Shown in pieces: positions 4,079-32,000 of a stretch of DNA of 32,000 bases (the first letter of the stretch is position 1; each line of letters opens with the position of its first letter). The notes under the pieces were generated by a model. It was not told where the DNA came from and searched no databases. It saw only the letters and a program-made list of their open reading frames with translations. A program made the position numbers and the translations under genes. The stretch lies in contig NZ_CP032551.1 in NCBI RefSeq assembly GCF_009734345.1, positions 750,001 through 782,000 on the forward strand, given 5' to 3'. The DNA comes from Pseudidiomarina andamanensis. Lineage in GTDB: Bacteria > Pseudomonadota > Gammaproteobacteria > Enterobacterales > Alteromonadaceae.

Positions 4079-5348
4079 CCCAGTCGATTCCTAAGCGTCT
4101 TGCCACATCAACCGCACTACGCACGCCATCTTCGTGGAAACCGTTATACCAGTAAGCGCCCGTAAAGTGACAATGGTGATGACCACAAATGCGGTCGCGT
4201 TGCTCCCGTGCTTGCATCGATGCCACGCTGTAAACCGGATGGGCGTAATAGTAAGTTCCCAGAATTTTCTCTGGATGAATAGCCGATGTGTTATTCAAGG
4301 TCACACAGAATACCTCCGGCGCATCAATGCGCTGTAAGATATTCATATTATAGCTCACCGAACTTGGGCGCGTGCGGGCATCGTCATCATTGTGTAATAA
4401 GTAGTTCCAACTCGCCCATGCACGTTTATTGCGCGGCAACAAACGCACGTCGGTATGCAATACCACTTCGTTCATTTGGTATGGAATATTACCGAGAACC
4501 TGTTGTTCAGCTTCTGTTGGCTGCGCTAACAAAGCGAGTGCTTCGTCGCTATGACAAGCAAATATCACCTCGTCAAAGTCTTGCTTATTTCCGTCCGCAA
4601 ATTCGAGTGTGATAGCACCCTCACGCTCCGGTAGGTCTCGATGGACAGCGACAATATTGGCATTGAGCGTAATGTTGTCGGCAAACCCCGCCGTAAGCGG
4701 TTTTATGTAGGCGCTAGAACCACCAATAATGGTATGCCATTGTGGTCTGTCCGCCACGTTTAACAGGCCGTGGTTCGAGAAAAAGCGCAAAAAGAAACCG
4801 AGTGGAAACGCTTCCGCTTCTTCTAGGCTTGCGCTCCAAATTGCAGCAACCATCGGCAATAAATAGAGCTCACTCACTTCGTTGGAGATGTTTTGTTGCT
4901 TAAGAAACTCACCCAACGTAATTTCATCGAGGTTATCGCCATTTTCATAAGCCGCTTTAGCTGCTTTATTAAAGCGCAAAATGCCGTTAATCAATCGATA
5001 AAAACTCGGTGAAAACAAATTCTTGCGCTGTGCAAATAACGTATTGAGGTTGTGGCCGTTGTACTCTAATCCGGTTTCTGGGTCACGCACACTAAAACTC
5101 ATTTCAGTATCTTGCCAAGCCACGTTTAGCTCTCGCATGAGTGCACGAAAATTCGGGTAGGTACGGTCATTAAAGACGATAAACCCTGTATCTACTGCAT
5201 AATCTTTGCCATGCGCTTTAACTGGTACTGTGTGGGTGTGCCCACCAATATAATCATTCTTTTCAAACACTTGTACATCATGTTGCTTGTGCAACAAATA
5301 GGCTGATGTAAGGCCCGCAATACCTGAGCCGATAATGGCAATCTTCAT
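4068..5348 (-). CDS. NAD(P)/FAD-dependent oxidoreductase, amine-oxidase/desaturase-like (UfaD-like candidate)
   Basis: N-terminal dinucleotide fold KIAIIGSGIAGLTSAY. Length is 426 aa, and the neighbourhood is conserved. Confidence 0.85.
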   Translation of the reverse strand: MKIAIIGSGIAGLTSAYLLHKQHDVQVFEKNDYIGGHTHTVPVKAHGKDYAVDTGFIVFNDRTYPNFRALMRELNVAWQDTEMSFSVRDPETGLEYNGHNLNTLFAQRKNLFSPSFYRLINGILRFNKAAKAAYENGDNLDEITLGEFLKQQNISNEVSELYLLPMVAAIWSASLEEAEAFPLGFFLRFFSNHGLLNVADRPQWHTIIGGSSAYIKPLTAGFADNITLNANIVAVHRDLPEREGAITLEFADGNKQDFDEVIFACHSDEALALLAQPTEAEQQVLGNIPYQMNEVVLHTDVRLLPRNKRAWASWNYLLHNDDDARTRPSSVSYNMNILQRIDAPEVFCVTLNNTSAIHPEKILGTYYYAHPVYSVASMQAREQRDRICGHHHCHFTGAYWYNGFHEDGVRSAVDVARRLGIDWDVS

Positions 5349-5385
5349 GAAAGTACTTCTCCGTAAGGTAAGCCGTAACGACGAC

Positions 5386-6102
5386 TTAAGCCATTCGCTT
5401 AGACAACGCCACCTGCCATGATTGCGGTAAGCGCGACATTAATTTTAAAAACCAACCAAACACAGTTGGAAAGGTAATATCCGTGGTTCCTTTACGAATT
5501 CCCTTACGGATTCGATCAGAGGCAAATTCAACTGATACTCGCATCGGCATCTCAAAATCATTCGCATCAGTCATTGGGGTTTCGACAAAGCCAGGAGATA
5601 CCGTAAGAACTTGAATACCCTTCGGTTCGAGGTCAACTTGCAGACTTCGTGCAATGTATTGAATGGCTGCTTTGGAACCACCGTAGGCTTCGGCACGAGT
5701 AAACGGCAGCAAGCGCGCCGTACTGCCAACAAGCACAAGCTTGCTACCAGCTTTCATATTCGGTAGTAACGCCTCAACACAGCGCATCATGCCAAACACG
5801 TTCACTTCAAATACGCGCTCAAACATCGCAGCTTCGAAGCGGTCAATATCAACATATTCACACACTCCGGCCGATAGAATCACCACGTCAACGTCGGTAT
5901 AAGCGGCAAGCGCTTGCTGGGTTTGATCGGCATCACTAACGTCTAAACGCTGTGCAGCAATATTGTCAGGGAAGCGTTGTTCTAACTCAGCGAGTACATC
6001 GGTATTACGTCCGCAGGCTATAACCGTGTGGCCTTCGCTCGCATAATCCATCGCAACTTGTTTGCCGATACCTGAGGTGGCGCCTGTAATCAGAATGTTC
6101 AT
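5386..6102 (-). CDS. Short-chain dehydrogenase/reductase (SDR)
   Basis: TGxxxGxG motif (ILITGATSGIGK) and catalytic YGGSK (YxxxK). Confidence 0.9.
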   Translation of the reverse strand: MNILITGATSGIGKQVAMDYASEGHTVIACGRNTDVLAELEQRFPDNIAAQRLDVSDADQTQQALAAYTDVDVVILSAGVCEYVDIDRFEAAMFERVFEVNVFGMMRCVEALLPNMKAGSKLVLVGSTARLLPFTRAEAYGGSKAAIQYIARSLQVDLEPKGIQVLTVSPGFVETPMTDANDFEMPMRVSVEFASDRIRKGIRKGTTDITFPTVFGWFLKLMSRLPQSWQVALSKRMA

Positions 6103-6536
6103 GATGATTTCACCCGCGTTTTAATCTTATCAATCACATAGCCAATCACGGGAATGTGTTCATACAGCATCGCGCCAGCGTCGTAATAGTCGGTTTGCGA
6201 TAAAATTTTATCGTTTTCAAGCTTCAAATGACTGGTACCCGGCACGACTATCTCACGCCCTTGCGCTAATTTCGGGTGCTTCAAGCGCATCTGCCACGTC
6301 ACAAACACATCATCGCCCTGCCGCGCTCTATCTGCGAATGCAAAATGGCAATACTCGACGCCTTTGATGGTGTTTAAAAAGTAGGTTTTAAGATCGTCTA
6401 TGCCCTGCACGTGATGAATTGGGTCAACAAAGGAAACGTCTTCACAATACAACGTATCAAGTGCAGCAATACTGTCTTCATTTAAGTCGTCATAGAGCCG
6501 TTCTAGCTGTTCAACGATATCTGCCACACTAGTCAT
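6099..6536 (-). CDS. NTF2/SnoaL-like fold protein
   Basis: 145 aa. There is a 4-nt overlap with the SDR start, and the position matches the conserved cluster. The fold call is by family memory, not a computed search. Confidence 0.6.
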   Translation of the reverse strand: MTSVADIVEQLERLYDDLNEDSIAALDTLYCEDVSFVDPIHHVQGIDDLKTYFLNTIKGVEYCHFAFADRARQGDDVFVTWQMRLKHPKLAQGREIVVPGTSHLKLENDKILSQTDYYDAGAMLYEHIPVIGYVIDKIKTRVKSS

Positions 6537-6557
6537 GATTCCCCCGTCGTTCTGTGT

Positions 6558-7964
6558 TTATAAGGCCTTAAAAGCCGTTAAGAAACGCTCCCTTGCTTGC
6601 TTATGGTTCACAATAGGAGCCGGATAATCGTCGCGTCCACGTTGTTTTAACCATGCAGTTGGCGCATGAATCTGTTTGGCCGGACAATCTTTTAATTGTT
6701 TAACCCATTTACGAATATAGCTGCCGTCGGGATCAACTTTTTCGCTTTGTAACGTTGGGTTAAACACCCGAAAATACGGTGCTGCATCAGTACCGGTTGA
6801 AGCACTCCACTGCCAGCCGCCATTGTTCGCAGCAAAGCTACCATCAATAAGATGTTGCATGAAAAACCGCTCACCCCAACGCCAGTCGATCATCAGATCT
6901 TTCACTAAAAAATGCGCCACAATCATGCGCACGCGGTTATGCATCCAACCTTCAGCGGCGAGTTGACGCATACCGGCATCGACAATGGGATACCCGGTTT
7001 CACCGCGACACCACGCGTCAAATTCGGCTTCGTTATTACGCCATTGCATGGCATCGGTATGCTTCAAAAACGCCTTGCCATAACTTAAGCGTGGCACATG
7101 CTGCATTAAGTGCAAATAAAACTCGCGCCATATCAGCTCGTTTAACCAAGTATCGGCGCCCTTGTCCAACCCTGCTGGAAAATTCGGACTTTGCTGCGCC
7201 ATCAAATGTATAGCTTGCCATGGTGATAAAATGCCAAGCTCCCAATACGGTGAAAGTCGCGACGTTGTGTCTAACCCTGGCATATCGCGCTCAGCCGCAT
7301 AACCATCGACATTCTCGGCGAGATAACGGTGCAAGGCTTCGCGAGCGGCAGCTTCGCCAACGTCCCAGGCGCTCGAATCGCGCTGCGGATAATCAATTTC
7401 TGGAATGGTTGCCACCTGAACAGACTGGCGCTGCGGCAGCGCTGCAATCGACGGCAGCCCTTTTTCTGAAACGTATTCTCGCCATGCTTTCGCAAACGGC
7501 GTGAATTTCTGATACATACTCCCTGCTTGCGTGGTAATAACTGGCGGCACCACTAAGCTGCCGTGGTGTTGGTGCACTGCAATGTCGTGGTCTTCCAGCA
7601 CCGCTTTCACGGCAAGATCACGGCGCTGTTCATGTACAGGATATTCAGCATTAAAATGAAGCTCAGTAAGCTCATGTTCCTGCGAAAAACGTTTCACCGC
7701 TTTCGCCGCGTTTGCCCACGAATCAATCACCTCTATCGACAAGGCAATACCATGCTCCGCTGCGTCCTTTACGAACTCATGCAAGTGTCGACGCAGCAAG
7801 TCCCACTTTATCGGCGCCCAATCATGCTCGCGCATTTGCTCAGGGCACAACAGTAACAGCGCAGGAATCGCACGTTCGGTGCTATTCACCTCACTGGCTG
7901 CGGCCACCGCTGGGTTAGCAGCCAAGCGTACATCACCACGAAACCACACCCCGGCGTAACTCAT
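6558..7964 (-). CDS. phrB: Deoxyribodipyrimidine photolyase (class I CPD type)
   Basis: Motifs TGYPIVDAGMRQL and NNGGWQWSASTGTDAAPYFRVFNP. The start overlaps the ybgA stop in ATGA, as in the E. coli ybgA-phr operon. Confidence 0.93.
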   Translation of the reverse strand: MSYAGVWFRGDVRLAANPAVAAASEVNSTERAIPALLLLCPEQMREHDWAPIKWDLLRRHLHEFVKDAAEHGIALSIEVIDSWANAAKAVKRFSQEHELTELHFNAEYPVHEQRRDLAVKAVLEDHDIAVHQHHGSLVVPPVITTQAGSMYQKFTPFAKAWREYVSEKGLPSIAALPQRQSVQVATIPEIDYPQRDSSAWDVGEAAAREALHRYLAENVDGYAAERDMPGLDTTSRLSPYWELGILSPWQAIHLMAQQSPNFPAGLDKGADTWLNELIWREFYLHLMQHVPRLSYGKAFLKHTDAMQWRNNEAEFDAWCRGETGYPIVDAGMRQLAAEGWMHNRVRMIVAHFLVKDLMIDWRWGERFFMQHLIDGSFAANNGGWQWSASTGTDAAPYFRVFNPTLQSEKVDPDGSYIRKWVKQLKDCPAKQIHAPTAWLKQRGRDDYPAPIVNHKQARERFLTAFKAL

Positions 7965-26104: not shown

Positions 26105-27613
26105 CTAAAACAAGCTTAATTGGTTGTCATTTGAAGTCGACTTTGTGGTGCGTTTTTTGCGTGACGCAAACTGCCGGCGGCGCTCTTTATTGCGGTCGGC
26201 GGGCTGTAAGTTATAGCGCGTACGAAGTTCCGCAATAGCGGCTTTTATTTGGCGATGGGATTGCTCGAAATCGACGAGTGGTTCTGGGTAAAAGAAGTCA
26301 TCATTCCACCCAGCTTGTTGCTTGAGCTTATTAGGCATCTGCCATGGCTCAAATAACCATGCGCCCTCCACGTGCTGCAATTCTGGTATCCAGCGCTTCA
26401 CAAACACACCATCTGGATCTAACCGCTGCGCCTGCATCACTGGGTTATAAATTCGAAGAATGGAATTACTCGCCTGCCCGCTTTGCATTTGTACTTGCGG
26501 ATAGTGAATGCCAGGTTCGTAATCCACAAACAACTTCGCAAGCCATTTGGCGACAGGTTGCCAAGGTAAACCCAATGAATACGTTGCTGCCGATACCAAC
26601 ATGGCCCGCATACGGAAGTTAATCCAGCCGTGGTGATGCAAATAGCGCATACAAGCGTCAACCATTGGCCAACCGGTACGTCCGTGTTTCCACGCTTCAA
26701 ACTTTACGGCGTCAAATGCGGGTTCTAGCTGCGCCATTTGCGGAACTAACGGTCGGTTTTCCATATAGCAATGGCTTTCAAAGCGCTGAGTGAAATAACA
26801 GTGCCACCACAATCGCTTGGCAAAATCGTTCAAACTTCGTCGCCAGTAACTGTTTACCGTGCGTTCTTGGATGGCATCAGTTTGCTGGACTAATTCTTTC
26901 AAGCTAATACAGCCGTACGCCAAGTAAGGGCTGAGACGAGAGCACGCAGTTGGTGCCGTCAGCGGTGAGCTGATTGAACCATGATAGCGTTCGCTGCGGC
27001 GGGTTAAAAAGCTCGTTAAAGTCGCCAAGGCTTGCGTACGCCCGCCGCTTTGACGCTTTCGGCATGGATATTCGTCTTGCGTGACGTCTACAGCTAAGTT
27101 AATTGATGGCTCATCGAAAGTGACGAAATCGATTTCACTAGGCAATTCAGCCTGTGGCTGCGACATATACGCAAACCAATGCTCGTGAAACGAACCTTCA
27201 CGTCGCTTCACCGGCCGCACAACACCAAACTGAGCATATTCATGCCATACAACGCCGTTTGAGTGGCACCAGCGTTTTACTGCCTTATCACGTTCAAACG
27301 TCCACGAGTTGCCCTGCTCTTCGTGGCTATGCAGCGTCAACGTCCCAAACCGCTGTTTTAATCTTGTCAGCGTTTCGACCACGTTTCCCTGTGTTATCCA
27401 CAAGGCACCGCCAAGGCGCTGAAGCTGCTCTTGCAAATCAATCAGCGATTCGCGCACAAACTGCCATTGCCGATTACTAGTATCTGGTAATTGCCAGTAG
27501 CCCGGTTCAACTACATAAACGCACAGCACAGGCCCTGTCTTGCTTGCTGCAGCCAAAGCTTGGTGATCAACTGTACGTAAATCGCGTTTAAACCAGACAA
27601 CTTGGAGATTCAT
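26105..27613 (-). CDS. Cryptochrome/photolyase family protein (divergent, basic C-terminal tail)
   Basis: VVWFKRDLRTVDH N-terminus and TGWPMVDACMRYL FAD-domain motif. ATG at 27613 is preferred over GTG at 27622. Confidence 0.88.
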   Translation of the reverse strand: MNLQVVWFKRDLRTVDHQALAAASKTGPVLCVYVVEPGYWQLPDTSNRQWQFVRESLIDLQEQLQRLGGALWITQGNVVETLTRLKQRFGTLTLHSHEEQGNSWTFERDKAVKRWCHSNGVVWHEYAQFGVVRPVKRREGSFHEHWFAYMSQPQAELPSEIDFVTFDEPSINLAVDVTQDEYPCRKRQSGGRTQALATLTSFLTRRSERYHGSISSPLTAPTACSRLSPYLAYGCISLKELVQQTDAIQERTVNSYWRRSLNDFAKRLWWHCYFTQRFESHCYMENRPLVPQMAQLEPAFDAVKFEAWKHGRTGWPMVDACMRYLHHHGWINFRMRAMLVSAATYSLGLPWQPVAKWLAKLFVDYEPGIHYPQVQMQSGQASNSILRIYNPVMQAQRLDPDGVFVKRWIPELQHVEGAWLFEPWQMPNKLKQQAGWNDDFFYPEPLVDFEQSHRQIKAAIAELRTRYNLQPADRNKERRRQFASRKKRTTKSTSNDNQLSLF

Positions 27614-27617
27614 GAAA

Positions 27618-27645
27618 AGCACTTAGAGTGAAATACCTAAGTGCT
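27618..27645 (-). promoter_or_regulatory. Perfect 9-bp hairpin abutting the cryptochrome start codon
   Basis: AGCACTTAG (27618-27626) / CTAAGTGCT (27637-27645) with a 10-nt loop. On the minus strand it is followed by TTTTC and then ATG. Confidence 0.4.
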
Positions 27646-27900
27646 AAAACGTGTGCCAAAGATGAGGAGATCATTCGCGACCGTTATTACGGACAACAAA
27701 ACTTAAGCTTTTTCGTTTATATAGTCGTTTCGATAGCGACGCGATTAGCTTTTGAACTAGGTGTTGGTTATCATCTTTAAATAATCTGAAGCTTCGGTGC
27801 GTCGGTGCTAAGGATTTCTCTAAGGTATTGCAGTCAGATCCTAATTTTTAAGATTGTAGTCTGCTATGTGCCAGGAGCGGACGTTGACGCTCGCATTGGC

Positions 27901-27979
27901 GGCTGGTTTGGAGCGCGGCGGAAAACCAGTCCGGTGGAAGCCCGTAAGGGCCGGAACGAACTTGAATGACTGGTTATGC
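27901..27979 (-). repeat. attC-like element, possibly degenerate terminal attC
   Basis: On the minus strand GCATAAC starts immediately after the TGA stop at 27980. The central segment TTTGGAGCGCGGCGGAAAA is nearly identical to that of the 28786-28857 site. No convincing GTTRRRY partner was found. Confidence 0.45.
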
Positions 27980-28768
27980 TCAAGCACTTGGACCATGCTG
28001 TTTTGGCCCATGCCAGTCGAATGCTTCCAATGTCTGTTGCAGAATATTTTGAAGCCTCTCCATTGATTCCGGTGACACATCAACCTCCCCATAATGACCG
28101 TCAGCCATTGTTGAGGCATATTTGGAGCCATTAAGGGAGTTGAGAATAAGCACACCTCCGTTGGGGGCGCTTATCATATTGTTTTCAACTGGCTTCAGAT
28201 CCAGAGGCTTCGGGTTCCTTCCAGCACCAAGGCCACGCGATCTATCCTCCAAGTGCTGAGCGCTGTTCCTTACTCCTCGAAGATCGGGAAATGCTTCGCC
28301 TACCTGGCCATGCAGCTCTGCAACGATTTCCGGCACACCGTCTTCTCTTGATAAAACCCCAAGGAACTTTTCAAATGAATCAATAGCGTAGAGAAAGGCT
28401 CGAGCGTATATGAAAGGTAAATTGTGCTCGAATTCCCGTGGTTGAAATCCATTCGACCATTTTTCTCTTTTGAACCGGACTTCGGTTTTAAAATTGATCT
28501 CATCCCACTGCTCGTGCCCCAGAAACCCACCGTACTCTTGCTCTATTTCCCGCCTAATCTCACTCCTTCGTTGGGCATCTCGTTCCCAGTTTTCACGGTC
28601 AGCGACTGACGGGCAGACAGATCTGGCTTCAGTAAACAAGTTCAGTGCAAAATTTGCCTCAAAATACTGTGATTTGAGTGATTGCAGCAGATTTCCGATT
28701 TTCCACGACCAATCCCGATCCTCACTTTCGAGCCATGTTCCAGGGGTTACGATTTCAAACACATACAT
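27980..28768 (-). CDS. Hypothetical protein with RNxxxH (HEPN-like) motif; single-gene cassette
   Basis: RNSAQH is encoded at 28253-28270, in a helical context. The start ATG at 28768 is preceded by AGGAG. The track start at 28789 lies inside the attC core. Confidence 0.7.
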   Translation of the reverse strand: MYVFEIVTPGTWLESEDRDWSWKIGNLLQSLKSQYFEANFALNLFTEARSVCPSVADRENWERDAQRRSEIRREIEQEYGGFLGHEQWDEINFKTEVRFKREKWSNGFQPREFEHNLPFIYARAFLYAIDSFEKFLGVLSREDGVPEIVAELHGQVGEAFPDLRGVRNSAQHLEDRSRGLGAGRNPKPLDLKPVENNMISAPNGGVLILNSLNGSKYASTMADGHYGEVDVSPESMERLQNILQQTLEAFDWHGPKQHGPSA

Positions 28769-28785
28769 TGCATATACTCCTAAGA

Positions 28786-28857
28786 GCATAACGCCGCGCT
28801 CTGCGGCAAATTTGGAGCGCAGCGGAAAATTTGTCCGACAGCAGCGCCTTGTTATGC
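28786..28857 (-). repeat. attC recombination site (72 bp)
   Basis: Minus strand reads GCATAAC-AAG-GCGCTGCTGTCGGAC-AAATTT-loop-AAATTT-GCCGCAGAGCGC-GGC-GTTATGC. The R boxes are perfect inverted repeats. Three single-base bulges all lie on the 5' arm. It starts 16 nt after the DprA-like stop. Confidence 0.75.
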
Positions 28858-28873
28858 GAATTTTGCGTCCGTG

Positions 28874-29848
28874 CTAAATCATGCTTTGCTGGACCGGACT
28901 TGGCGCCATGACGACAGCACTTGAACAAAGAATTTTTGGAAGTGCTGTTGCACTGCTTTCTTCACTAAAAACCACAATGCTAGGCTCTTCTGAAATAAGT
29001 TGCCTATTTAAATCAAACATTGGGTTGTTTAAGTGCTGCTTTTCATCGTAGATAACTGCCCTAGGTATTGAATAATCTTTGGCGTAACCCATTGCTAATC
29101 TGGAACCGCTATCATTTCCTATATCGTTCTTGGCGTAACTAGCAGACAATACGATTGAATTGCTAAAAAGGGCCTGTAATCTATCTCGCTCTTGATACCT
29201 GCCACTTAGCTGCATTTTGGATTTTGGCGCGGTAAGATATTCAGAAATTAATAATCCACCACTTGCGACAATATCCTTGGCCAAATCTTTGTTCTTGGCT
29301 GGCATAATATCGTTTAGCGGGCTTGGGAGGATTGCAATTGTCTTTCCCTTGGAATCTAAAGCTTGCAGATGAGCAATGGAGTCACAACCCAACGCCAGAC
29401 CACTAACTATTACAGCGCCATTGGCCACCAAGTTAGCAACAAGTTTCCGTTCTATCGCTTCTATCTCTTGGGTGGGATTCAGTAATCCTATTACTGCAAT
29501 ATTGTTACTTTCAGTGGATAGCAGCGAAAGATCGCCTTTATAAAATAGAAAAATCGGGCGTTCACTATTTTTCACGGAGCCGCGATGTGCGGGGAAATCA
29601 TCATCTCCAATAGCGACAACGCCATCAACTGCACCCACTGACTCGGAAAGTATTCTTCGCAACATCGACTTTTTCTTGTTGAAGTCCTCAATGGTGATTG
29701 TGCCCTCTGACTTAGAGGATTCGTTTAATAGCTTAACGATAGCTTCTTCGGGCTTTGGGGTTGAAAGATTCTTAACAATCCAAGCCCGTCCAATACCTTT
29801 ATAAATTCTGGCAGCCATGACATTGATGGCGTTCTCGCTACATTTCAT
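28874..29848 (-). CDS. DprA/Smf-like (SLOG superfamily) Rossmann-fold protein
   Basis: DprA-type motifs VSGLALGCDSIAH, GGLLISEY and RYQERDRLQALFS. It is not in the usual housekeeping dprA neighbourhood. Confidence 0.8.
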   Translation of the reverse strand: MKCSENAINVMAARIYKGIGRAWIVKNLSTPKPEEAIVKLLNESSKSEGTITIEDFNKKKSMLRRILSESVGAVDGVVAIGDDDFPAHRGSVKNSERPIFLFYKGDLSLLSTESNNIAVIGLLNPTQEIEAIERKLVANLVANGAVIVSGLALGCDSIAHLQALDSKGKTIAILPSPLNDIMPAKNKDLAKDIVASGGLLISEYLTAPKSKMQLSGRYQERDRLQALFSNSIVLSASYAKNDIGNDSGSRLAMGYAKDYSIPRAVIYDEKQHLNNPMFDLNRQLISEEPSIVVFSEESSATALPKILCSSAVVMAPSPVQQSMI

Positions 29849-29864
29849 ATCAGTTTCCCATTCC

Positions 29865-30488
29865 TCAGAATCTTTTTGGCGTGTTTCCGATCGCGTAGAA
29901 CACTACCGACCTAGCCCCGTTATCAAACAAAGCTTGCACCATATCTTCATCAATGTTCACCGTTTTTGTGTATATGTCATCGACTAGTAAGATGTCGCGC
30001 CCCCTGATATGCGCTGAGAAATTGCAGGTATCTGAAGCGATGCCCGGATAGGGCATTCGACCATCGTTCTCGAATCCATCAACAGGGTTTCGCAGGTGGG
30101 TAGTTCGGGTGTTCGTATGCCGGATAATAAAATCCGATCCATCTGCAAATCCGGGGGTTGAACGAGCATATGCCCCGACCGTTGCCTTAAACAATAACTG
30201 GTCTGGACGATAAGAAGCTTCTGCCTTGGCTCTTGGGACGACGCAAACCGTCAAGGTGCTTGCCTCGACCTGCTTGATAATTTCCGGGAAATCTATACCG
30301 AGAACCGTATTCAGATCGTTGATCGCGTATCTGATATTTTGTTGGCTCCAATTGTGATGGGGATCATTCTTGAGTTTGTACAGGAAATCCGGATTTCCTG
30401 GTTGACCCGCTCCATGAAAGTCGGCATGAAAATAGCCTGGCACATTTCGGTTCAAGAACTGGTTTGCTTCCATTATGAATTTGTTCAT
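29865..30488 (-). CDS. Phosphoribosyltransferase-fold protein (ComF-like)
   Basis: PRPP-loop-like RDILLVDDIYTKT near the C-terminus. Start overlaps the HAD stop (ATGA). Confidence 0.75.
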   Translation of the reverse strand: MNKFIMEANQFLNRNVPGYFHADFHGAGQPGNPDFLYKLKNDPHHNWSQQNIRYAINDLNTVLGIDFPEIIKQVEASTLTVCVVPRAKAEASYRPDQLLFKATVGAYARSTPGFADGSDFIIRHTNTRTTHLRNPVDGFENDGRMPYPGIASDTCNFSAHIRGRDILLVDDIYTKTVNIDEDMVQALFDNGARSVVFYAIGNTPKRF

Positions 30489-31084
30489 CTTGTAATCCTG
30501 CGTACATCTATTATCTGATCAATTCCAATGCCGCAAGCAATAGCTGACTCAATGGCCTTTTCATCATTCTCAAACACCAACATGGACATGCTTCCTTTCG
30601 GAAGTTCAGCCATCAATTGCACGTACTTATCTCTTTGAGATTCAGCGTCTCTATAGATCTTCCGTGTGAACTTCTCGATAAGTCCGTGATGGTTGAGTAA
30701 CATTTCCGCTCGACATCTGCGACTATTTGTGGCCAAAACAACTTCTTTCTCTTGGACGCGTGCAACTATTTCAATTAGTCGCGGGATGGCCTTTGTTTCT
30801 GAAAGATATTTATGATATGAGCGCTCTTTAAGTAAGGCAATCTCTTCAATTTGTTTGTCAGTGATGCCCGGAATAATTTCTTCAAGTACTTCTCGCGTTA
30901 TTCTGGTGCCCGGAGTGAAATCAATTTCTATTTGTGTAGATAGAACGAACATCACAGCATCTTTATACGCCAAAAAGTTGGCGTGATCGGAATCCACCAA
31001 GGTTCCGTCCAAATCAAATACGATAACTTCCGCTCGCTCAGCTTTGGCCAGCCATTCTTCACGTGCTTGATTTCCGTCAACCAT
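30485..31084 (-). CDS. HAD-superfamily hydrolase (phosphatase-like)
   Basis: Motif I VFDLDGTLVDS, motif II VLATNS, and a cap domain between them. ATG at 31084 has GAGG at good spacing. The track start at 31102 lies inside the attC core GTTATGC. Confidence 0.85.
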   Translation of the reverse strand: MVDGNQAREEWLAKAERAEVIVFDLDGTLVDSDHANFLAYKDAVMFVLSTQIEIDFTPGTRITREVLEEIIPGITDKQIEEIALLKERSYHKYLSETKAIPRLIEIVARVQEKEVVLATNSRRCRAEMLLNHHGLIEKFTRKIYRDAESQRDKYVQLMAELPKGSMSMLVFENDEKAIESAIACGIGIDQIIDVRRITR

Positions 31085-31098
31085 GCTCCGCCTCATTC

Positions 31099-31198
31099 GC
31101 ATAACGCCGTTGTAACCGGCAAAAAATTGTTGGCTAAAATGTGAAGCGAAGCGTAACAGCCAACAAGTTTTTTGTCCGCGTTGACAACTTTGTTAGGC
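31099..31198 (-). repeat. attC recombination site (100 bp)
   Basis: On the minus strand GCCTAAC (a perfect RYYYAAC) starts 1 nt after the TAG stop. The far end reads GTTATGC. The L arms GTTGTCAACGCGGAC / GCCGGTTACAAC pair with three bulges on the 5' arm, and an extended 15-bp stem carries an about 20-nt loop. Confidence 0.75.
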
Positions 31199-31199
31199 T

Positions 31200-32000
31200 C
31201 TACATTTCGTATAAGCTCAAACCCATTGAAGCACCTATAGCGTACCAAACTCTCTGCCAGAGAACACGCTCAAGGTCATAACCAATGAATGATGTTTCCT
31301 CATTACCATGCCTAAGTAATTTCCCATTGGACAAGTATTTGAAATTAAAGGTTCCCAGTTGCTTATCACTTAGCTGTTCAGGAAGGACAGCACGAAGAGG
31401 TTTAAGATAAACAGGATCATCAGCAACTAAAATAAACTCATCAAATAAGTGCGAAAAACTTTCCATATGGTTACCTAACTCGAGTGTATACCATTCTTCA
31501 GAAACGGTATTTATCCTAATTTCACCTTTTTCATAATCCTTCGTTGAACCGTCAAGATGCTTTATCTCATGCCCATCTTCTGGTGGGTGGAAGACAAACG
31601 CAGTGATAAATGATTTTTCATGAAGCCACTCTATGGCATGAGGGATAAATTCATCAATTTCAACAGGCTTTAATAATCGATTTGGATGAAGCTCTTTAAA
31701 GAAACGTAAGGCCTTAGCTGTTTCTCTATAAAGAAAAGGATAGTCGATGTACATTACACGGTACTTAGCTGGTGCTCTTTGCATTCGTTCTTTGTATATT
31801 TCTCTAACTTCAGCAACGCATGATTTAGGGTTTCGGTTTATCTCTCGCCCTGTGAACCTTATAACGGCGTATCCAGCTCTTGAAAGGTAACGCTGCCGTA
31901 TGGCGTCTTTTTCTAACTGCTCTTTCGTTGAATGATAGTCATGCCCATCTAACTCAACTATTAGTCGAGCATCTTTCAATATAAAATCAACACGGAATCG
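31200..32000 (-). CDS. DUF559 (Vsr/restriction-endonuclease-like) domain fused to an unknown about 170-aa C-terminal domain; 5' end outside window
   Basis: The frame is open to the right edge (RFRVDFILKDARLIVELDGHDYH...GYAVIRF). The track start at 31979 (TTG) is internal to the domain. Confidence 0.7.
   Translation of the reverse strand, partial: RFRVDFILKDARLIVELDGHDYHSTKEQLEKDAIRQRYLSRAGYAVIRFTGREINRNPKSCVAEVREIYKERMQRAPAKYRVMYIDYPFLYRETAKALRFFKELHPNRLLKPVEIDEFIPHAIEWLHEKSFITAFVFHPPEDGHEIKHLDGSTKDYEKGEIRINTVSEEWYTLELGNHMESFSHLFDEFILVADDPVYLKPLRAVLPEQLSDKQLGTFNFKYLSNGKLLRHGNEETSFIGYDLERVLWQRVWYAIGASMGLSLYEM

What the first reader, a model, noticed from the sequence alone, without database searches (positions are those of the whole stretch)
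28786..31198. Three-gene integron cassette: HAD phosphatase, ComF-like PRTase and DprA/SLOG-like protein (candidate nucleotide-centred defence system)
**What the sequence shows**
- Between attC 31099-31198 and attC 28786-28857 lies one about 2.3-kb cassette with three co-oriented ORFs and no internal attC.
- The first ORF is a HAD hydrolase (VFDLDGTLVDS).
- The second is a PRTase-fold protein. Its PRPP loop ILLVDDIYTK lacks the usual TTG after the DD.
- The third is a DprA/Smf-type Rossmann protein (SGLALGCDSIAH, GGLLISEY, RYQERDRL).
- The HAD stop and PRTase start overlap (ATGA at 30485-30488), and the PRTase-DprA gap is 16 nt. The genes therefore look like one operon.
- Integron cassettes normally carry one ORF, so a three-gene cassette is unusual.
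- The only non-coding sequence upstream is the attC itself. Expression must come from read-through or from a promoter within or upstream of the attC.

**Context from memory**
- Recent work reports that integron cassettes act as reservoirs of anti-phage systems.
- A two-gene DprA-like plus PRTase module is, as I recall, catalogued as a candidate defence system from phage-satellite hotspots (DprA-PPRT). I know of no described version with an obligatory HAD partner or in an integron.

**Mechanistic hypotheses (inference)**
- (a) DprA and ComFC are the ssDNA-handling pair of natural transformation. Paralogues might sense or trap incoming phage or plasmid ssDNA.
- (b) The system might follow SLOG/LOG-type logic. 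The PRTase would build a nucleotide from PRPP plus a base, the HAD phosphatase would convert it to a nucleoside, and the SLOG protein would bind or cleave it. The outcome would be a signal, a toxic analogue or nucleotide depletion.
Basis: partly seen in the sequence, partly recalled or inferred. Interest (0 to 1): 0.9.

Follow-up and report, generated by a model that had tools for sequence, protein, structure and literature searches.

The report
Split-toxin ShosTA defence cassette in integron
The three genes are a real single integron cassette, but they belong to the already characterised ShosTA toxin-antitoxin anti-phage system, with its normally fused two-domain toxin encoded here as two separate genes.

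Summary
Three co-oriented minus-strand genes sit between two well-folding attC sites, with a 4-nt overlap and a 16-nt gap. They encode a HAD hydrolase, a PRTase and a DprA-like protein.

The PRTase and DprA-like proteins match the ShosT and ShosA profiles of the known ShosTA (Shosta) defence/toxin-antitoxin system. Published ShosT is a fusion of an N-terminal HAD-type hydrolase and a C-terminal PRTase. The "extra" HAD gene is therefore the detached N-terminal half of the toxin.

Supporting evidence:
- Genuine HAD-PRTase fusion proteins occur in the same PRTase family.
- A two-domain profile aligns collinearly with the Pseudomonas phage ShosT and, more weakly, with E. coli ShosT.
- HAD is adjacent in 67 of 71 informative loci across many phyla, in two gene orders.
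- All three genes are under purifying selection.
- The same 2.3-kb unit occurs in other genomes, with homology ending at the attC core (GTTATGC).

Verdict: a new architectural variant of a known system, carried as one mobile cassette.

Open points: the substrate of the HAD enzyme, and the clade-wide loss of a DprA ssDNA-contact arginine.

The parts
31099..31198 (-). Upstream attC (belongs to the preceding cassette). Its R' core GTTATGC at 31105-31099 marks the start of the three-gene cassette.
   Evidence: The hairpin folds at -23.7 kcal/mol with z = -4.0. An inverted repeat is seen at 31121-31135 / 31158-31172. Homology to L001 begins exactly at GTTATGC.
30485..31084 (-). HAD-IA phosphohydrolase gene, 199 aa from Met7 (the open frame extends to 31102). 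It is the split-off N-terminal module of ShosT. The catalytic motifs are DLDGT (D24 at 31015-31013, D26 at 31009-31007), ATNS, K153 and ENDE.
   Evidence: Pfam Hydrolase/HAD_2 match at E about 1e-8. The motifs are invariant in 32 homologues. hhalign to the N-terminus of Pf-phage ShosT gives 92% probability. HAD-PRT fusion proteins exist in the same family.
29865..30488 (-). Divergent type I PRTase gene (207 aa), the ShosT catalytic (toxin) module. The PRPP loop is ILLVDDIYTKTVNIDED, with D170/D171 at 29981-29976. Its start overlaps the HAD stop (ATGA).
   Evidence: PADLOC ShosT PDLC03962 match at E = 2.8e-7. The AF2 model has pLDDT 80, and its best PDB fold matches are H. pylori ComF 7p0h and ShosT 8zvc/8zvd/8zvb. 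The family has 1567 hits, the 120 listed all stand-alone (155-216 aa, most about 207), and 71 invariant columns.
28874..29848 (-). DprA-like gene (324 aa), the ShosA-type antitoxin.
   Evidence: Pfam DNA_processg_A match at 9e-37. PADLOC ShosA PDLC03961 match at 7.8e-49, covering 35-289. PDB ShosA 9vzo and 8zva match at about 2e-14. It scores below the NCBIfam DprA equivalog cut-offs.
28786..28857 (-). The cassette's own attC (72 nt), reading GCATAAC...GTTATGC.
   Evidence: The hairpin folds at -21.3 kcal/mol with z = -3.2. Inverted repeats I5, I7 and I8 lie here. Homology to S. algae L077 ends exactly at 28786.
28786..31105 (-). The whole mobile unit (about 2.3 kb): a roughly 20-nt leader with a Shine-Dalgarno sequence, three genes and the attC. 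No promoter-like site lies upstream of the HAD gene.
   Evidence: The blastn homology blocks to L077, L078, L001 and L002 span this unit. The promoter scan found no promoter-like site upstream of the HAD start; the single minus-strand match in 27600-32000 lies inside the HAD gene (30840-30812, 9 of 12).

Best explanation
This is a ShosTA-family toxin-antitoxin / abortive-infection module carried as one promoterless integron cassette. Its toxin is split into two polypeptides.

**Proposed mechanism (inferred by homology to E. coli ShosTA; not tested for this cassette)**
1. The 207-aa PRTase binds PRPP through its invariant DD loop. It transfers the phosphoribosyl group to a still unknown acceptor.
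2. This perturbs purine and nucleotide pools, causing replication stress, DNA damage and growth arrest.
3. The 199-aa HAD enzyme has an intact Asp nucleophile. It hydrolyses a phosphate ester or anhydride linked to that reaction.
4. The most likely HAD substrate is the released PPi, which would pull the reaction forward. The 5'-phosphate of the product is the alternative.
5. The DprA-like ShosA counteracts the damage without needing to bind the toxin, by engaging DNA and RecA-dependent repair.
6. Phage infection tips the balance towards the toxin. Possible triggers are host shut-off, which would deplete a labile antitoxin, or phage ssDNA competing for the antitoxin.

**Expression and mobility**
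- Translational coupling (ATGA overlap, 16-nt gap) keeps the three products co-expressed.
- Transcription must come from upstream of the cassette.
- IntI-type recombination at the attC cores moves the trio as one piece.
For: **What the sequence and comparisons show**
- The proteins match the ShosA and ShosT profiles.
- The same broad ShosT model also catches E. coli ShosT at 2e-53 and the Pf-phage ShosT at 1e-17.
- Solved ShosA chains match at 2e-14.
- The PRTase model's best PDB neighbours are ComF and ShosT.
- Published ShosT is an N-terminal HAD-type hydrolase plus a C-terminal PRTase.
- A Pseudomonas Pf-phage ShosT is annotated as HAD/PRTase and has the same toxin-then-antitoxin order.
- The HAD family aligns to that N-terminus at 92% probability.
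- A profile of real and virtual HAD-PRT fusions aligns collinearly. Against Pf ShosT the probability is 94% (E 1.4e-7). Against E. coli ShosT it is 60% (E 8.8e-5).
- Real HAD-PRT fusion proteins (P0225, P0232, P0241, P0319, P0220) lie inside the same PRTase family.

**Co-conservation**
- 61 loci have the order HAD-PRT-DprA and 6 have PRT-DprA-HAD, out of 73. Median gaps are 3 and 13 nt.
- The loci span many bacterial phyla and one archaeal MAG.
- dN/dS is 0.06-0.5 for all three genes.
- The catalytic motifs are invariant.

**Defence context elsewhere**
- A WYL regulator lies 24-57 nt upstream in 8 Bacteroidota loci (289 nt in a ninth, L040).
- Other neighbours include Cas, restriction-modification, Gabija and retron-type genes.

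**From the literature**
- Toxicity, PRPP binding, the DD-mutant phenotype, ssDNA and RecA binding, and anti-T7 activity are shown for E. coli ShosTA.
Against: - Sequence similarity of the PRTase to solved ShosT is weak. phmmer and a family profile find no ShosT chain in the PDB.
- The Foldseek E-values are only about 2e-3, with TM about 0.4.
- The single-domain hhalign covers only the PRPP loop.
- The HAD model does not retrieve the ShosT N-terminal domain among its top 50 PDB matches.
- The E. coli ShosT N-terminal domain has a degenerate motif I (FSIADVV). The window's HAD is canonical, so its substrate may differ.
- The ShosA-like clade lacks the arginine equivalent to E. coli R139, which is essential there.
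- No promoter was detected for the cassette.
- No function was tested here.
Confidence: 0.78

Rival explanations
1. Same family, but the HAD enzyme is a 5'-nucleotidase or sugar-phosphatase acting on the PRTase product. The pair would then make a nucleoside-type toxic analogue or signal, or the HAD would detoxify the product and act as a second safeguard. It would not be a pyrophosphatase.
For: - The HAD has a full catalytic set and a C1 cap, as in HAD-IA sugar and nucleotide phosphatases. Its fold neighbours include pseudouridine-5'-phosphatase HDHD1A.
- The best NCBIfam match is the beta-phosphoglucomutase-family hydrolase subfamily (TIGR02009, E 3.3e-12), with a weak pyrimidine 5'-nucleotidase match (3.4e-4). 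The BT2127-type diphosphatase match is only E = 0.013.
- The ShosT acceptor and product are unknown.
- HAD is separable, can follow DprA in the gene order, and can be absent.
Against: - For E. coli ShosT the N-terminal domain showed PPi hydrolysis and bound phosphate. Its mutation only mildly lowered toxicity.
- No substrate evidence exists for this clade.
Confidence: 0.2
2. The module serves mainly as an addiction (post-segregational killing) cassette that stabilises the chromosomal integron array, and anti-phage defence is secondary or absent in this host.
For: - It belongs to a toxin-antitoxin family.
- It sits near the distal end of a cassette array that borders core genes.
- It is established knowledge, not tested here, that toxin-antitoxin cassettes are common in sedentary chromosomal integrons and stabilise them.
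Against: - The cassette lacks a detectable promoter of its own, whereas array-stabilising toxin-antitoxin cassettes usually carry one (own knowledge).
- Most relatives are not in integrons. They sit beside WYL regulators and defence genes.
- Anti-phage activity of ShosTA is shown experimentally (PMC9122126).
Confidence: 0.15
3. The genes are paralogues of the natural-transformation pair DprA and ComFC, acting in uptake or processing of incoming ssDNA.
For: - The best single PDB fold match of the PRTase is H. pylori ComF.
- The third protein has a DprA domain.
Against: - The DprA equivalog cut-offs are missed: 116 against 191 bits, and 87 against 495 bits.
- The GntX/ComF match is only E = 0.023.
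- There is no Cys-rich zinc finger; only C82 and C155 are conserved.
- The unit is mobile. It is present in an archaeal MAG and in candidate-phyla (Peribacteria, Saccharibacteria) MAGs.
- It is always linked to a HAD or to defence neighbours rather than to competence genes.
Confidence: 0.03

Closest known systems
ShosTA (Shosta) of E. coli APEC O1 / P2-like prophage hotspot (PDB 8ZVA-8ZVD, 9VZO; here L074)
   Same: - It pairs a DprA-like antitoxin with a PRPP-binding PRTase toxin that has a DD loop.
- A HAD-fold hydrolase module is associated with the PRTase.
- The genes are adjacent and co-oriented, and the system rides on mobile elements.
- Both hit the same PADLOC ShosA and ShosT models.
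   Different: - The E. coli toxin is one 424-aa fusion. Here it is two genes.
- The E. coli hydrolase domain is short (164 aa) and lacks the DxD nucleophile. Here the HAD is 199 aa, capped and catalytically canonical.
- The gene order in E. coli is antitoxin first. Here it is toxin first.
- E. coli ShosA has R139. This clade has Leu at that position.
- PRTase sequence similarity is barely detectable.
ShosTA of Pseudomonas filamentous phage PfAC02a (OR790968; here L075)
   Same: - The order is HAD, PRTase, then DprA-like.
- The HAD motifs are canonical (FDLDNT, GDD).
- Its ShosA is the closest phage-record DprA-like match, at 38% identity and E 4e-20.
- The two-domain alignment is collinear, at 94% probability.
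   Different: - It is a fused 478-aa toxin with a canonical TTG PRPP loop and a C-terminal Cys-rich tail.
- The window's PRTase has the unusual loop DDIYTKTVNIDED and no tail.
PsyrTA / RqlHI
   Same: It has a DprA-like antitoxin and a toxin that contains a PRTase domain.
   Different: - The window's PRTase gave no PsyrT match. Pf-phage ShosT hits only the C-terminal part (557-685 of 689) of that much longer model. From memory, PsyrT carries a RecQ-like helicase region, and the 207-aa PRTase has no room for one.
- The PsyrA match is much weaker than the ShosA match: 5e-17 against 8e-49.
DprA + ComFC of natural transformation
   Same: It shares the Rossmann-type DprA fold and a ComF-like type I PRTase fold.
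   Different: - The proteins fall below the equivalog cut-offs.
- There is no ComFC zinc finger.
- The context is a mobile cassette and defence islands.
- A HAD partner is present.
Integron cassettes encoding phage defence (sedentary and mobile integrons)
   Same: It is a promoterless unit bounded by attC sites, carries defence cargo, and occurs in different arrays.
   Different: - It has three genes in one cassette of about 2.3 kb.
- ShosTA was not mentioned in the two integron-defence preprints searched. Of the papers that mention both integrons and ShosTA, the two I read do not link them.

Membership tests
ShosTA (Shosta) defence / type IV toxin-antitoxin system | DprA-like antitoxin that matches ShosA profiles | tested here: met
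   PADLOC PDLC03961 matches at E 7.8e-49 over residues 35-289. PDB ShosA 9vzo and 8zva match at about 2e-14.
ShosTA (Shosta) defence / type IV toxin-antitoxin system | Toxin with a PRPP-binding PRTase domain (DD of the PRPP loop, PPi loop, long flexible loop) | tested here: met
   - PADLOC ShosT PDLC03962 matches at E 2.8e-7.
- D170/D171, the R86/K88 loop and the RHTNT..TTH loop are invariant.
- Residues 129-144 are a low-confidence flexible loop.
- ShosT 8zvc is the second-best PDB fold match.
- The match is weak at the sequence level.
ShosTA (Shosta) defence / type IV toxin-antitoxin system | Hydrolase (HAD-fold) domain and PRTase domain in one polypeptide | tested here: not met
   There are two ORFs with an ATGA overlap, and 67 of 73 related loci also encode HAD as a separate adjacent gene. 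Fused forms do exist in the same family. The module is therefore present, but split.
ShosTA (Shosta) defence / type IV toxin-antitoxin system | ssDNA-contact arginines of ShosA (E. coli R139, R234, R261) | tested here: inconclusive
   - The R234 region (RDR[LI]Q) is kept in 72 of 74 proteins.
- A GSR arginine is kept in 7 of the 9 aligned ShosA-type proteins (Ser in the two reference ShosA).
- The R139 position is hydrophobic (LL, VL or LI) in 67 of 74 proteins.
ShosTA (Shosta) defence / type IV toxin-antitoxin system | Toxin toxicity neutralised by the antitoxin; protection against phage | not testable with these tools
   This is known only for E. coli ShosTA (PMC9122126).
Integron gene cassette | Bounded by attC sites that have R''/R' cores and an imperfect bulged hairpin, with the ORFs reading towards their attC | tested here: met
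   z-scores are -3.2 and -4.0.
Integron gene cassette | The same unit occurs in other contexts with breakpoints at the attC core | tested here: met
   - The S. algae L077 homology block runs 31120..28786, with different neighbouring cassettes.
- The Aliidiomarina L001 block starts at GTTATGC.
- Azonexus L002 and Thiotrichales L004 keep attC remnants or a full attC.
Integron gene cassette | Integron integrase and attI on the same replicon | not testable with these tools
   No intI lies in the window. The array runs off the window end at 32000, and core genes begin below about 27.6 kb.
Housekeeping DprA (competence) | Score above the NCBIfam equivalog cut-off | tested here: not met
   TIGR00732 scores 116 bits against a cut-off of 191. 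PRK10736 scores 87 bits against 495.
ComFC / ComF / GntX | N-terminal four-Cys zinc finger plus a PRTase that matches the family model | tested here: not met
   The GntX model matches only at E 0.023 over 45 residues. Only two conserved Cys residues are present, and they are not in a finger.
HAD superfamily, subfamily IA phosphohydrolase | Motifs I-IV (DxDxT, T/S, K, acidic pair) and a C1 cap | tested here: met
   D24, D26, T28, K153 and E172-N173-D174 are invariant or nearly so. Pfam and NCBIfam HAD-IA models match. The capped fold has pLDDT 90.

The most novel reading that the evidence does not exclude
The split is functional rather than a neutral fission. The toxin would be active only when the two polypeptides act together, and the canonical HAD enzyme would work on the phosphoribosylated product rather than on PPi. 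In parallel, the clade's ShosA has lost the GTR arginine, so it may no longer read ssDNA the way DprA does and may sense a different ligand or DNA form. That would make this widespread clade (392 clusters) a mechanistically distinct tripartite system. It could also be a convenient route to the unknown ShosT acceptor, because the catalytic subunit is small and separable.
Probability: 0.15. Interest if true: 0.6.

Novelty: new variant of a known kind. Interest (0 to 1): 0.4.

Why it matters
- A multi-gene defence system can be packaged and exchanged as a single integron cassette. The same 2.3-kb unit appears in several lineages with recombination-site breakpoints.
- The work defines a large, previously unremarked branch of ShosTA in which the toxin is split. 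Standard tools would report only two genes and ignore the HAD gene (no PADLOC model matches it).
- The catalytically intact, separable HAD and the small PRTase give a cleaner handle than the E. coli fusion on two open questions: what ShosT phosphoribosylates, and what the hydrolase does.
- This is not a new kind of immunity.

Tried and rejected
- Sequence searches of the PRTase against solved structures found no ShosT chain. This held for the single sequence and for the 16-sequence profile. The link had to come from the PADLOC profile, the fold search and the fusion proteins.
- hhalign of single-domain profiles against the E. coli ShosT sequence gave only the PRPP loop, and nothing for the HAD.
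- My first attC heuristics were unhelpful. The strict RYYYAAC/GTTRRRY version missed both real sites, and the loose version flooded the window with hairpins. I then used attC scans only on the flanks of the trio. Most non-proteobacterial loci show no attC.
- The exact DprA-like protein is not on record in the contig index.
- Rfam gave only a sub-threshold chance hit.
- No sigma-70-like promoter was found upstream of the HAD gene.
- No attC could be shown after the last ORF, 27980-28789.
- I rejected a recent frameshift or pseudogene as the cause of the split. The split is conserved across phyla, and all three genes are under purifying selection.
- I rejected a hidden internal attC (see the observation check).
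- I did not identify the host organism. Cassette proteins are closest to Shewanella algae, but cassettes are mobile.


Full report
**1. The observation**

| Gene | Coordinates | Length |
|---|---|---|
| HAD | 30485-31102 | 205 aa |
| PRTase-like | 29865-30488 | 207 aa |
| DprA-like | 28874-29848 | 324 aa |

- The HAD stop and the PRTase start share ATGA. The PRTase-DprA gap is 16 nt.
- Both flanking elements fold as long, bulged, imperfect hairpins typical of attC sites. Their energies are -21.3 and -23.7 kcal/mol as DNA, with z = -3.2 and -4.0. Only 0-1 of 200 shuffles fold as well.
- On the gene strand the cores read GCATAAC...GTTATGC and GCCTAAC...GTTATGC.
- The core GGCGTTATGC occurs only at these two places in the array.
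- There is no room for an attC between the genes.
- Homologues and independent gene calls give a 197-199-aa HAD. The real start is therefore probably the ATG at 31084, behind a GAGG, and not the ATG inside the attC core.
- That leaves about 20 nt between the recombination point and the start codon. The simple scan finds no promoter-like site upstream of the HAD gene.

**2. What the proteins are**

- Pfam calls the first protein a HAD hydrolase and the third a DprA domain (9e-37). It finds nothing for the second.
- PADLOC assigns the third protein to ShosA (7.8e-49, nearly full length) and the second to ShosT (2.8e-7).
- The same broad ShosT model hits E. coli ShosT at 2e-53 and a Pseudomonas phage ShosT at 1e-17. 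Other members of this PRTase family hit it at 1e-7 to 1e-9.
- Solved ShosA structures (9VZO, 8ZVA) match the third protein at about 2e-14.
- It scores well below NCBI's cut-offs for true DprA.
- An AlphaFold model of the PRTase (pLDDT 80, with a disordered loop at 129-144) finds H. pylori ComF and then ShosT (8ZVC, 8ZVD, 8ZVB) as its best PDB neighbours, ahead of HPRTs. The scores are weak, with E about 2e-3 and TM about 0.4.
- The HAD model (pLDDT 90) is a capped HAD-IA phosphatase.

**3. The key to the "third gene"**

- Pu et al. 2025 (PMC11961720) and Yang et al. 2026 (PMC12961424) solved E. coli ShosT.
  - It is a 424-aa protein.
  - Its N-terminal Rossmann hydrolase domain resembles the HAD-family pyrophosphatase BT2127.
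  - Its C-terminal domain is a PRTase that binds PRPP.
  - D331A/D332A abolishes toxicity, while a hydrolase-site mutant lowers it only slightly.
- I retrieved two reference systems.
  - The first is the P2-like phage version, with ShosA followed by a 424-aa ShosT.
  - The second is from a Pseudomonas filamentous phage. Its 478-aa ShosT is annotated "HAD family hydrolase/phosphoribosyltransferase" and is followed by ShosA.
- The window's HAD (199 aa) plus PRTase (207 aa) add up to such a toxin.

**4. Evidence that this is homology and not coincidence**

- (a) The HAD family profile aligns to the N-terminus of the Pseudomonas ShosT at 92% probability.
- (b) An exhaustive profile search with the PRTase family found 392 clusters. 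Fourteen of the best 150 are proteins of 386-427 aa with the PRTase in the C-terminal half.
- Several of these (P0225, P0232, P0241, P0319, P0220) carry an N-terminal HAD domain. The three whose sequences I read (P0225, P0232, P0241) also have a continuous linker.
- (c) A profile made of these real fusions plus "virtual" fusions of adjacent genes aligns collinearly over both domains. Against the Pseudomonas ShosT it gives 94% probability (E 1.4e-7, 17-405 vs 1-391). Against E. coli ShosT it is weaker, at 60% (E 8.8e-5).

**5. Co-conservation**

A pattern scan of one genome per species returned 73 loci. The architectures are as follows:

| Architecture | Loci | Notes |
|---|---|---|
| HAD-PRTase-DprA | 61 | Median gaps 3 and 13 nt |
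| PRTase-DprA-HAD | 6 | L060, L064, L066, L068, L070, L071 |
| No HAD | 4 | L054 and L069 have >5 kb on both sides; L032 and L058 have short downstream flanks |
| Cut by a contig end | 2 | Uninformative |

- The hosts span Pseudomonadota, Bacteroidota, Desulfobacterota, Bacillota, Spirochaetota, Campylobacterota, Fusobacteriota, Planctomycetota, candidate phyla and one Methanosarcinales MAG.
- dN/dS between the window and four relatives is 0.06-0.5 for all three genes. HAD evolves fastest.
- The HAD motifs DLDGT, K153 and E-N-D are invariant in 32 homologues.
- The PRTase has 71 invariant columns, including VVPRAK, RHTNT..TTH and LLxDDxYTxTVNIDED.

**6. Cassette mobility**

- The window and a Shewanella algae contig share 97% identity over exactly 31120..28786. 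That block runs from the last few bases of the upstream attC to the last base of the cassette's own attC. The neighbouring cassettes differ: HNH_5 upstream and an unknown 197-aa protein downstream, against DUF559 and a phrog_5322-like ORF in the window.
- In Aliidiomarina maris (92% identity) the homology starts precisely at GTTATGC.
- Azonexus keeps the GTTAGGC leader and the downstream ATTCGCATAAC box. A Thiotrichales MAG has a 93-nt attC right after the dprA-like gene.
- The trio therefore moves as one cassette. Most relatives in other phyla are not in integrons.
- In nine Bacteroidota loci (eight Bacteroidales plus Sediminibacterium L040) a WYL-domain regulator lies upstream on the same strand, 24-57 nt in eight of them and 289 nt in L040. 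Other flanks carry Cas1/Cas3, type I/III restriction-modification, GajB, retron-type reverse transcriptases and NERD/Mrr genes.

**7. Mechanism**

- By homology I take this to be a ShosTA-type toxin-antitoxin / abortive-infection module.
- The PRTase uses PRPP on an unknown acceptor and perturbs nucleotide pools and replication.
- The HAD enzyme makes the reaction irreversible (PPi hydrolysis) or processes the product.
- The DprA-like antitoxin counteracts the damage through DNA and RecA.
- These steps are shown only for the E. coli system and are inferred here.

**8. Differences from the E. coli system**

- The E. coli hydrolase domain has lost the DxD nucleophile (FSIADVV). The window's HAD and the Pseudomonas one are canonical. 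The substrate may therefore not be the same.
- The ShosA-like proteins of this clade carry LL, VL or LI in 67 of 74 cases. At that position DprA and both reference ShosA proteins have the G-T-R arginine (E. coli R139). That arginine is essential for ssDNA binding and antitoxin activity in E. coli.
- The RDRLQ arginines are kept.

**9. Comparison and novelty**

- It works like ShosTA and carries all of its modules.
- It fails one architectural criterion, the single-polypeptide toxin, and is inconclusive on one residue-level criterion.
- The held literature gave no description of a three-gene or split ShosTA.
- ShosTA was absent from the two integron-defence preprints I searched.
- Ten papers mention both integrons and ShosTA, and the two I read do not link them.
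- The library is incomplete, so this absence is not proof.
- I classify it as a new variant of a known kind, of moderate interest.

Noticed in passing
window 27980-28789 (-), and 27860-27990: The last ORF of the array (269 aa, no Pfam hit) matches phage protein family phrog_5322 (unknown function) end to end at E 6e-102. No convincing attC hairpin follows it (z = -0.66), so the array seems to end in a degenerate site next to a photolyase gene.
   Followed up: partly
window 31200-32000 (-); L076 875-1825: The upstream cassette encodes a DUF559/MTES_1575 (Vsr-like endonuclease fold) protein. It is 316 aa in an identical contig, so the window end cuts it.
   Followed up: partly
L040, L042, L045, L046, L049, L051, L053, L055, L059 (about 4.1-5.4 kb in each locus): A WYL-WCX regulator gene lies upstream of the HAD gene on the same strand in nine Bacteroidota loci (24-57 nt in eight, 289 nt in L040). 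This suggests a dedicated transcriptional switch. A conserved unknown protein of about 265 aa follows the dprA-like gene in five of these loci.
   Followed up: partly
proteins P0214 (544 aa), P0279 (491 aa), P0281 (622 aa), P0208 (401 aa): Other architectures occur in the same PRTase family. There are PRTase-DprA single-chain fusions (toxin fused to antitoxin), a cold-shock domain + Sel1 repeats + PRTase protein, and an unknown N-terminal domain + PRTase protein. I did not check whether any of these are assembly or gene-calling artefacts.
   Followed up: partly
DprA-like ORFs of L001-L073; window codons for 'IGLLNPT' (about 29490-29470): The canonical DprA 'GTR' ssDNA-contact arginine is replaced across the clade by hydrophobic residues, while the RDRLQ motif is kept.
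   Followed up: yes
L005 and L006 (same Prolixibacteraceae chromosome, about 70 kb apart); L019; L072: One chromosome carries two PRTase matches about 70 kb apart that give identical gene calls for the whole trio. L019 has a second PRTase copy about 2.5 kb downstream. L072 shows a tandem duplication with a truncated dprA-like copy.
   Followed up: no
L037 (Methanosarcinales MAG), 4847-7381: The complete HAD-PRTase-DprA trio occurs on a contig binned to an archaeon. Its proteins are 45-57% identical to the window's. This suggests inter-domain transfer, unless the contig was mis-binned.
   Followed up: no
L077 9380-9400: In the S. algae copy, the core upstream of the cassette reads ATTATGC instead of GTTATGC. 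This is a point difference in the recombination core.
   Followed up: no
window 1-27622: The rest of the window is core genome: pheT, thrS, a lumazine-binding (riboflavin synthase-like) gene, an Rrf2 regulator, a P450 fragment and a photolyase. The window therefore catches the distal end of a chromosomal cassette array. No integrase lies in the window.
   Followed up: partly
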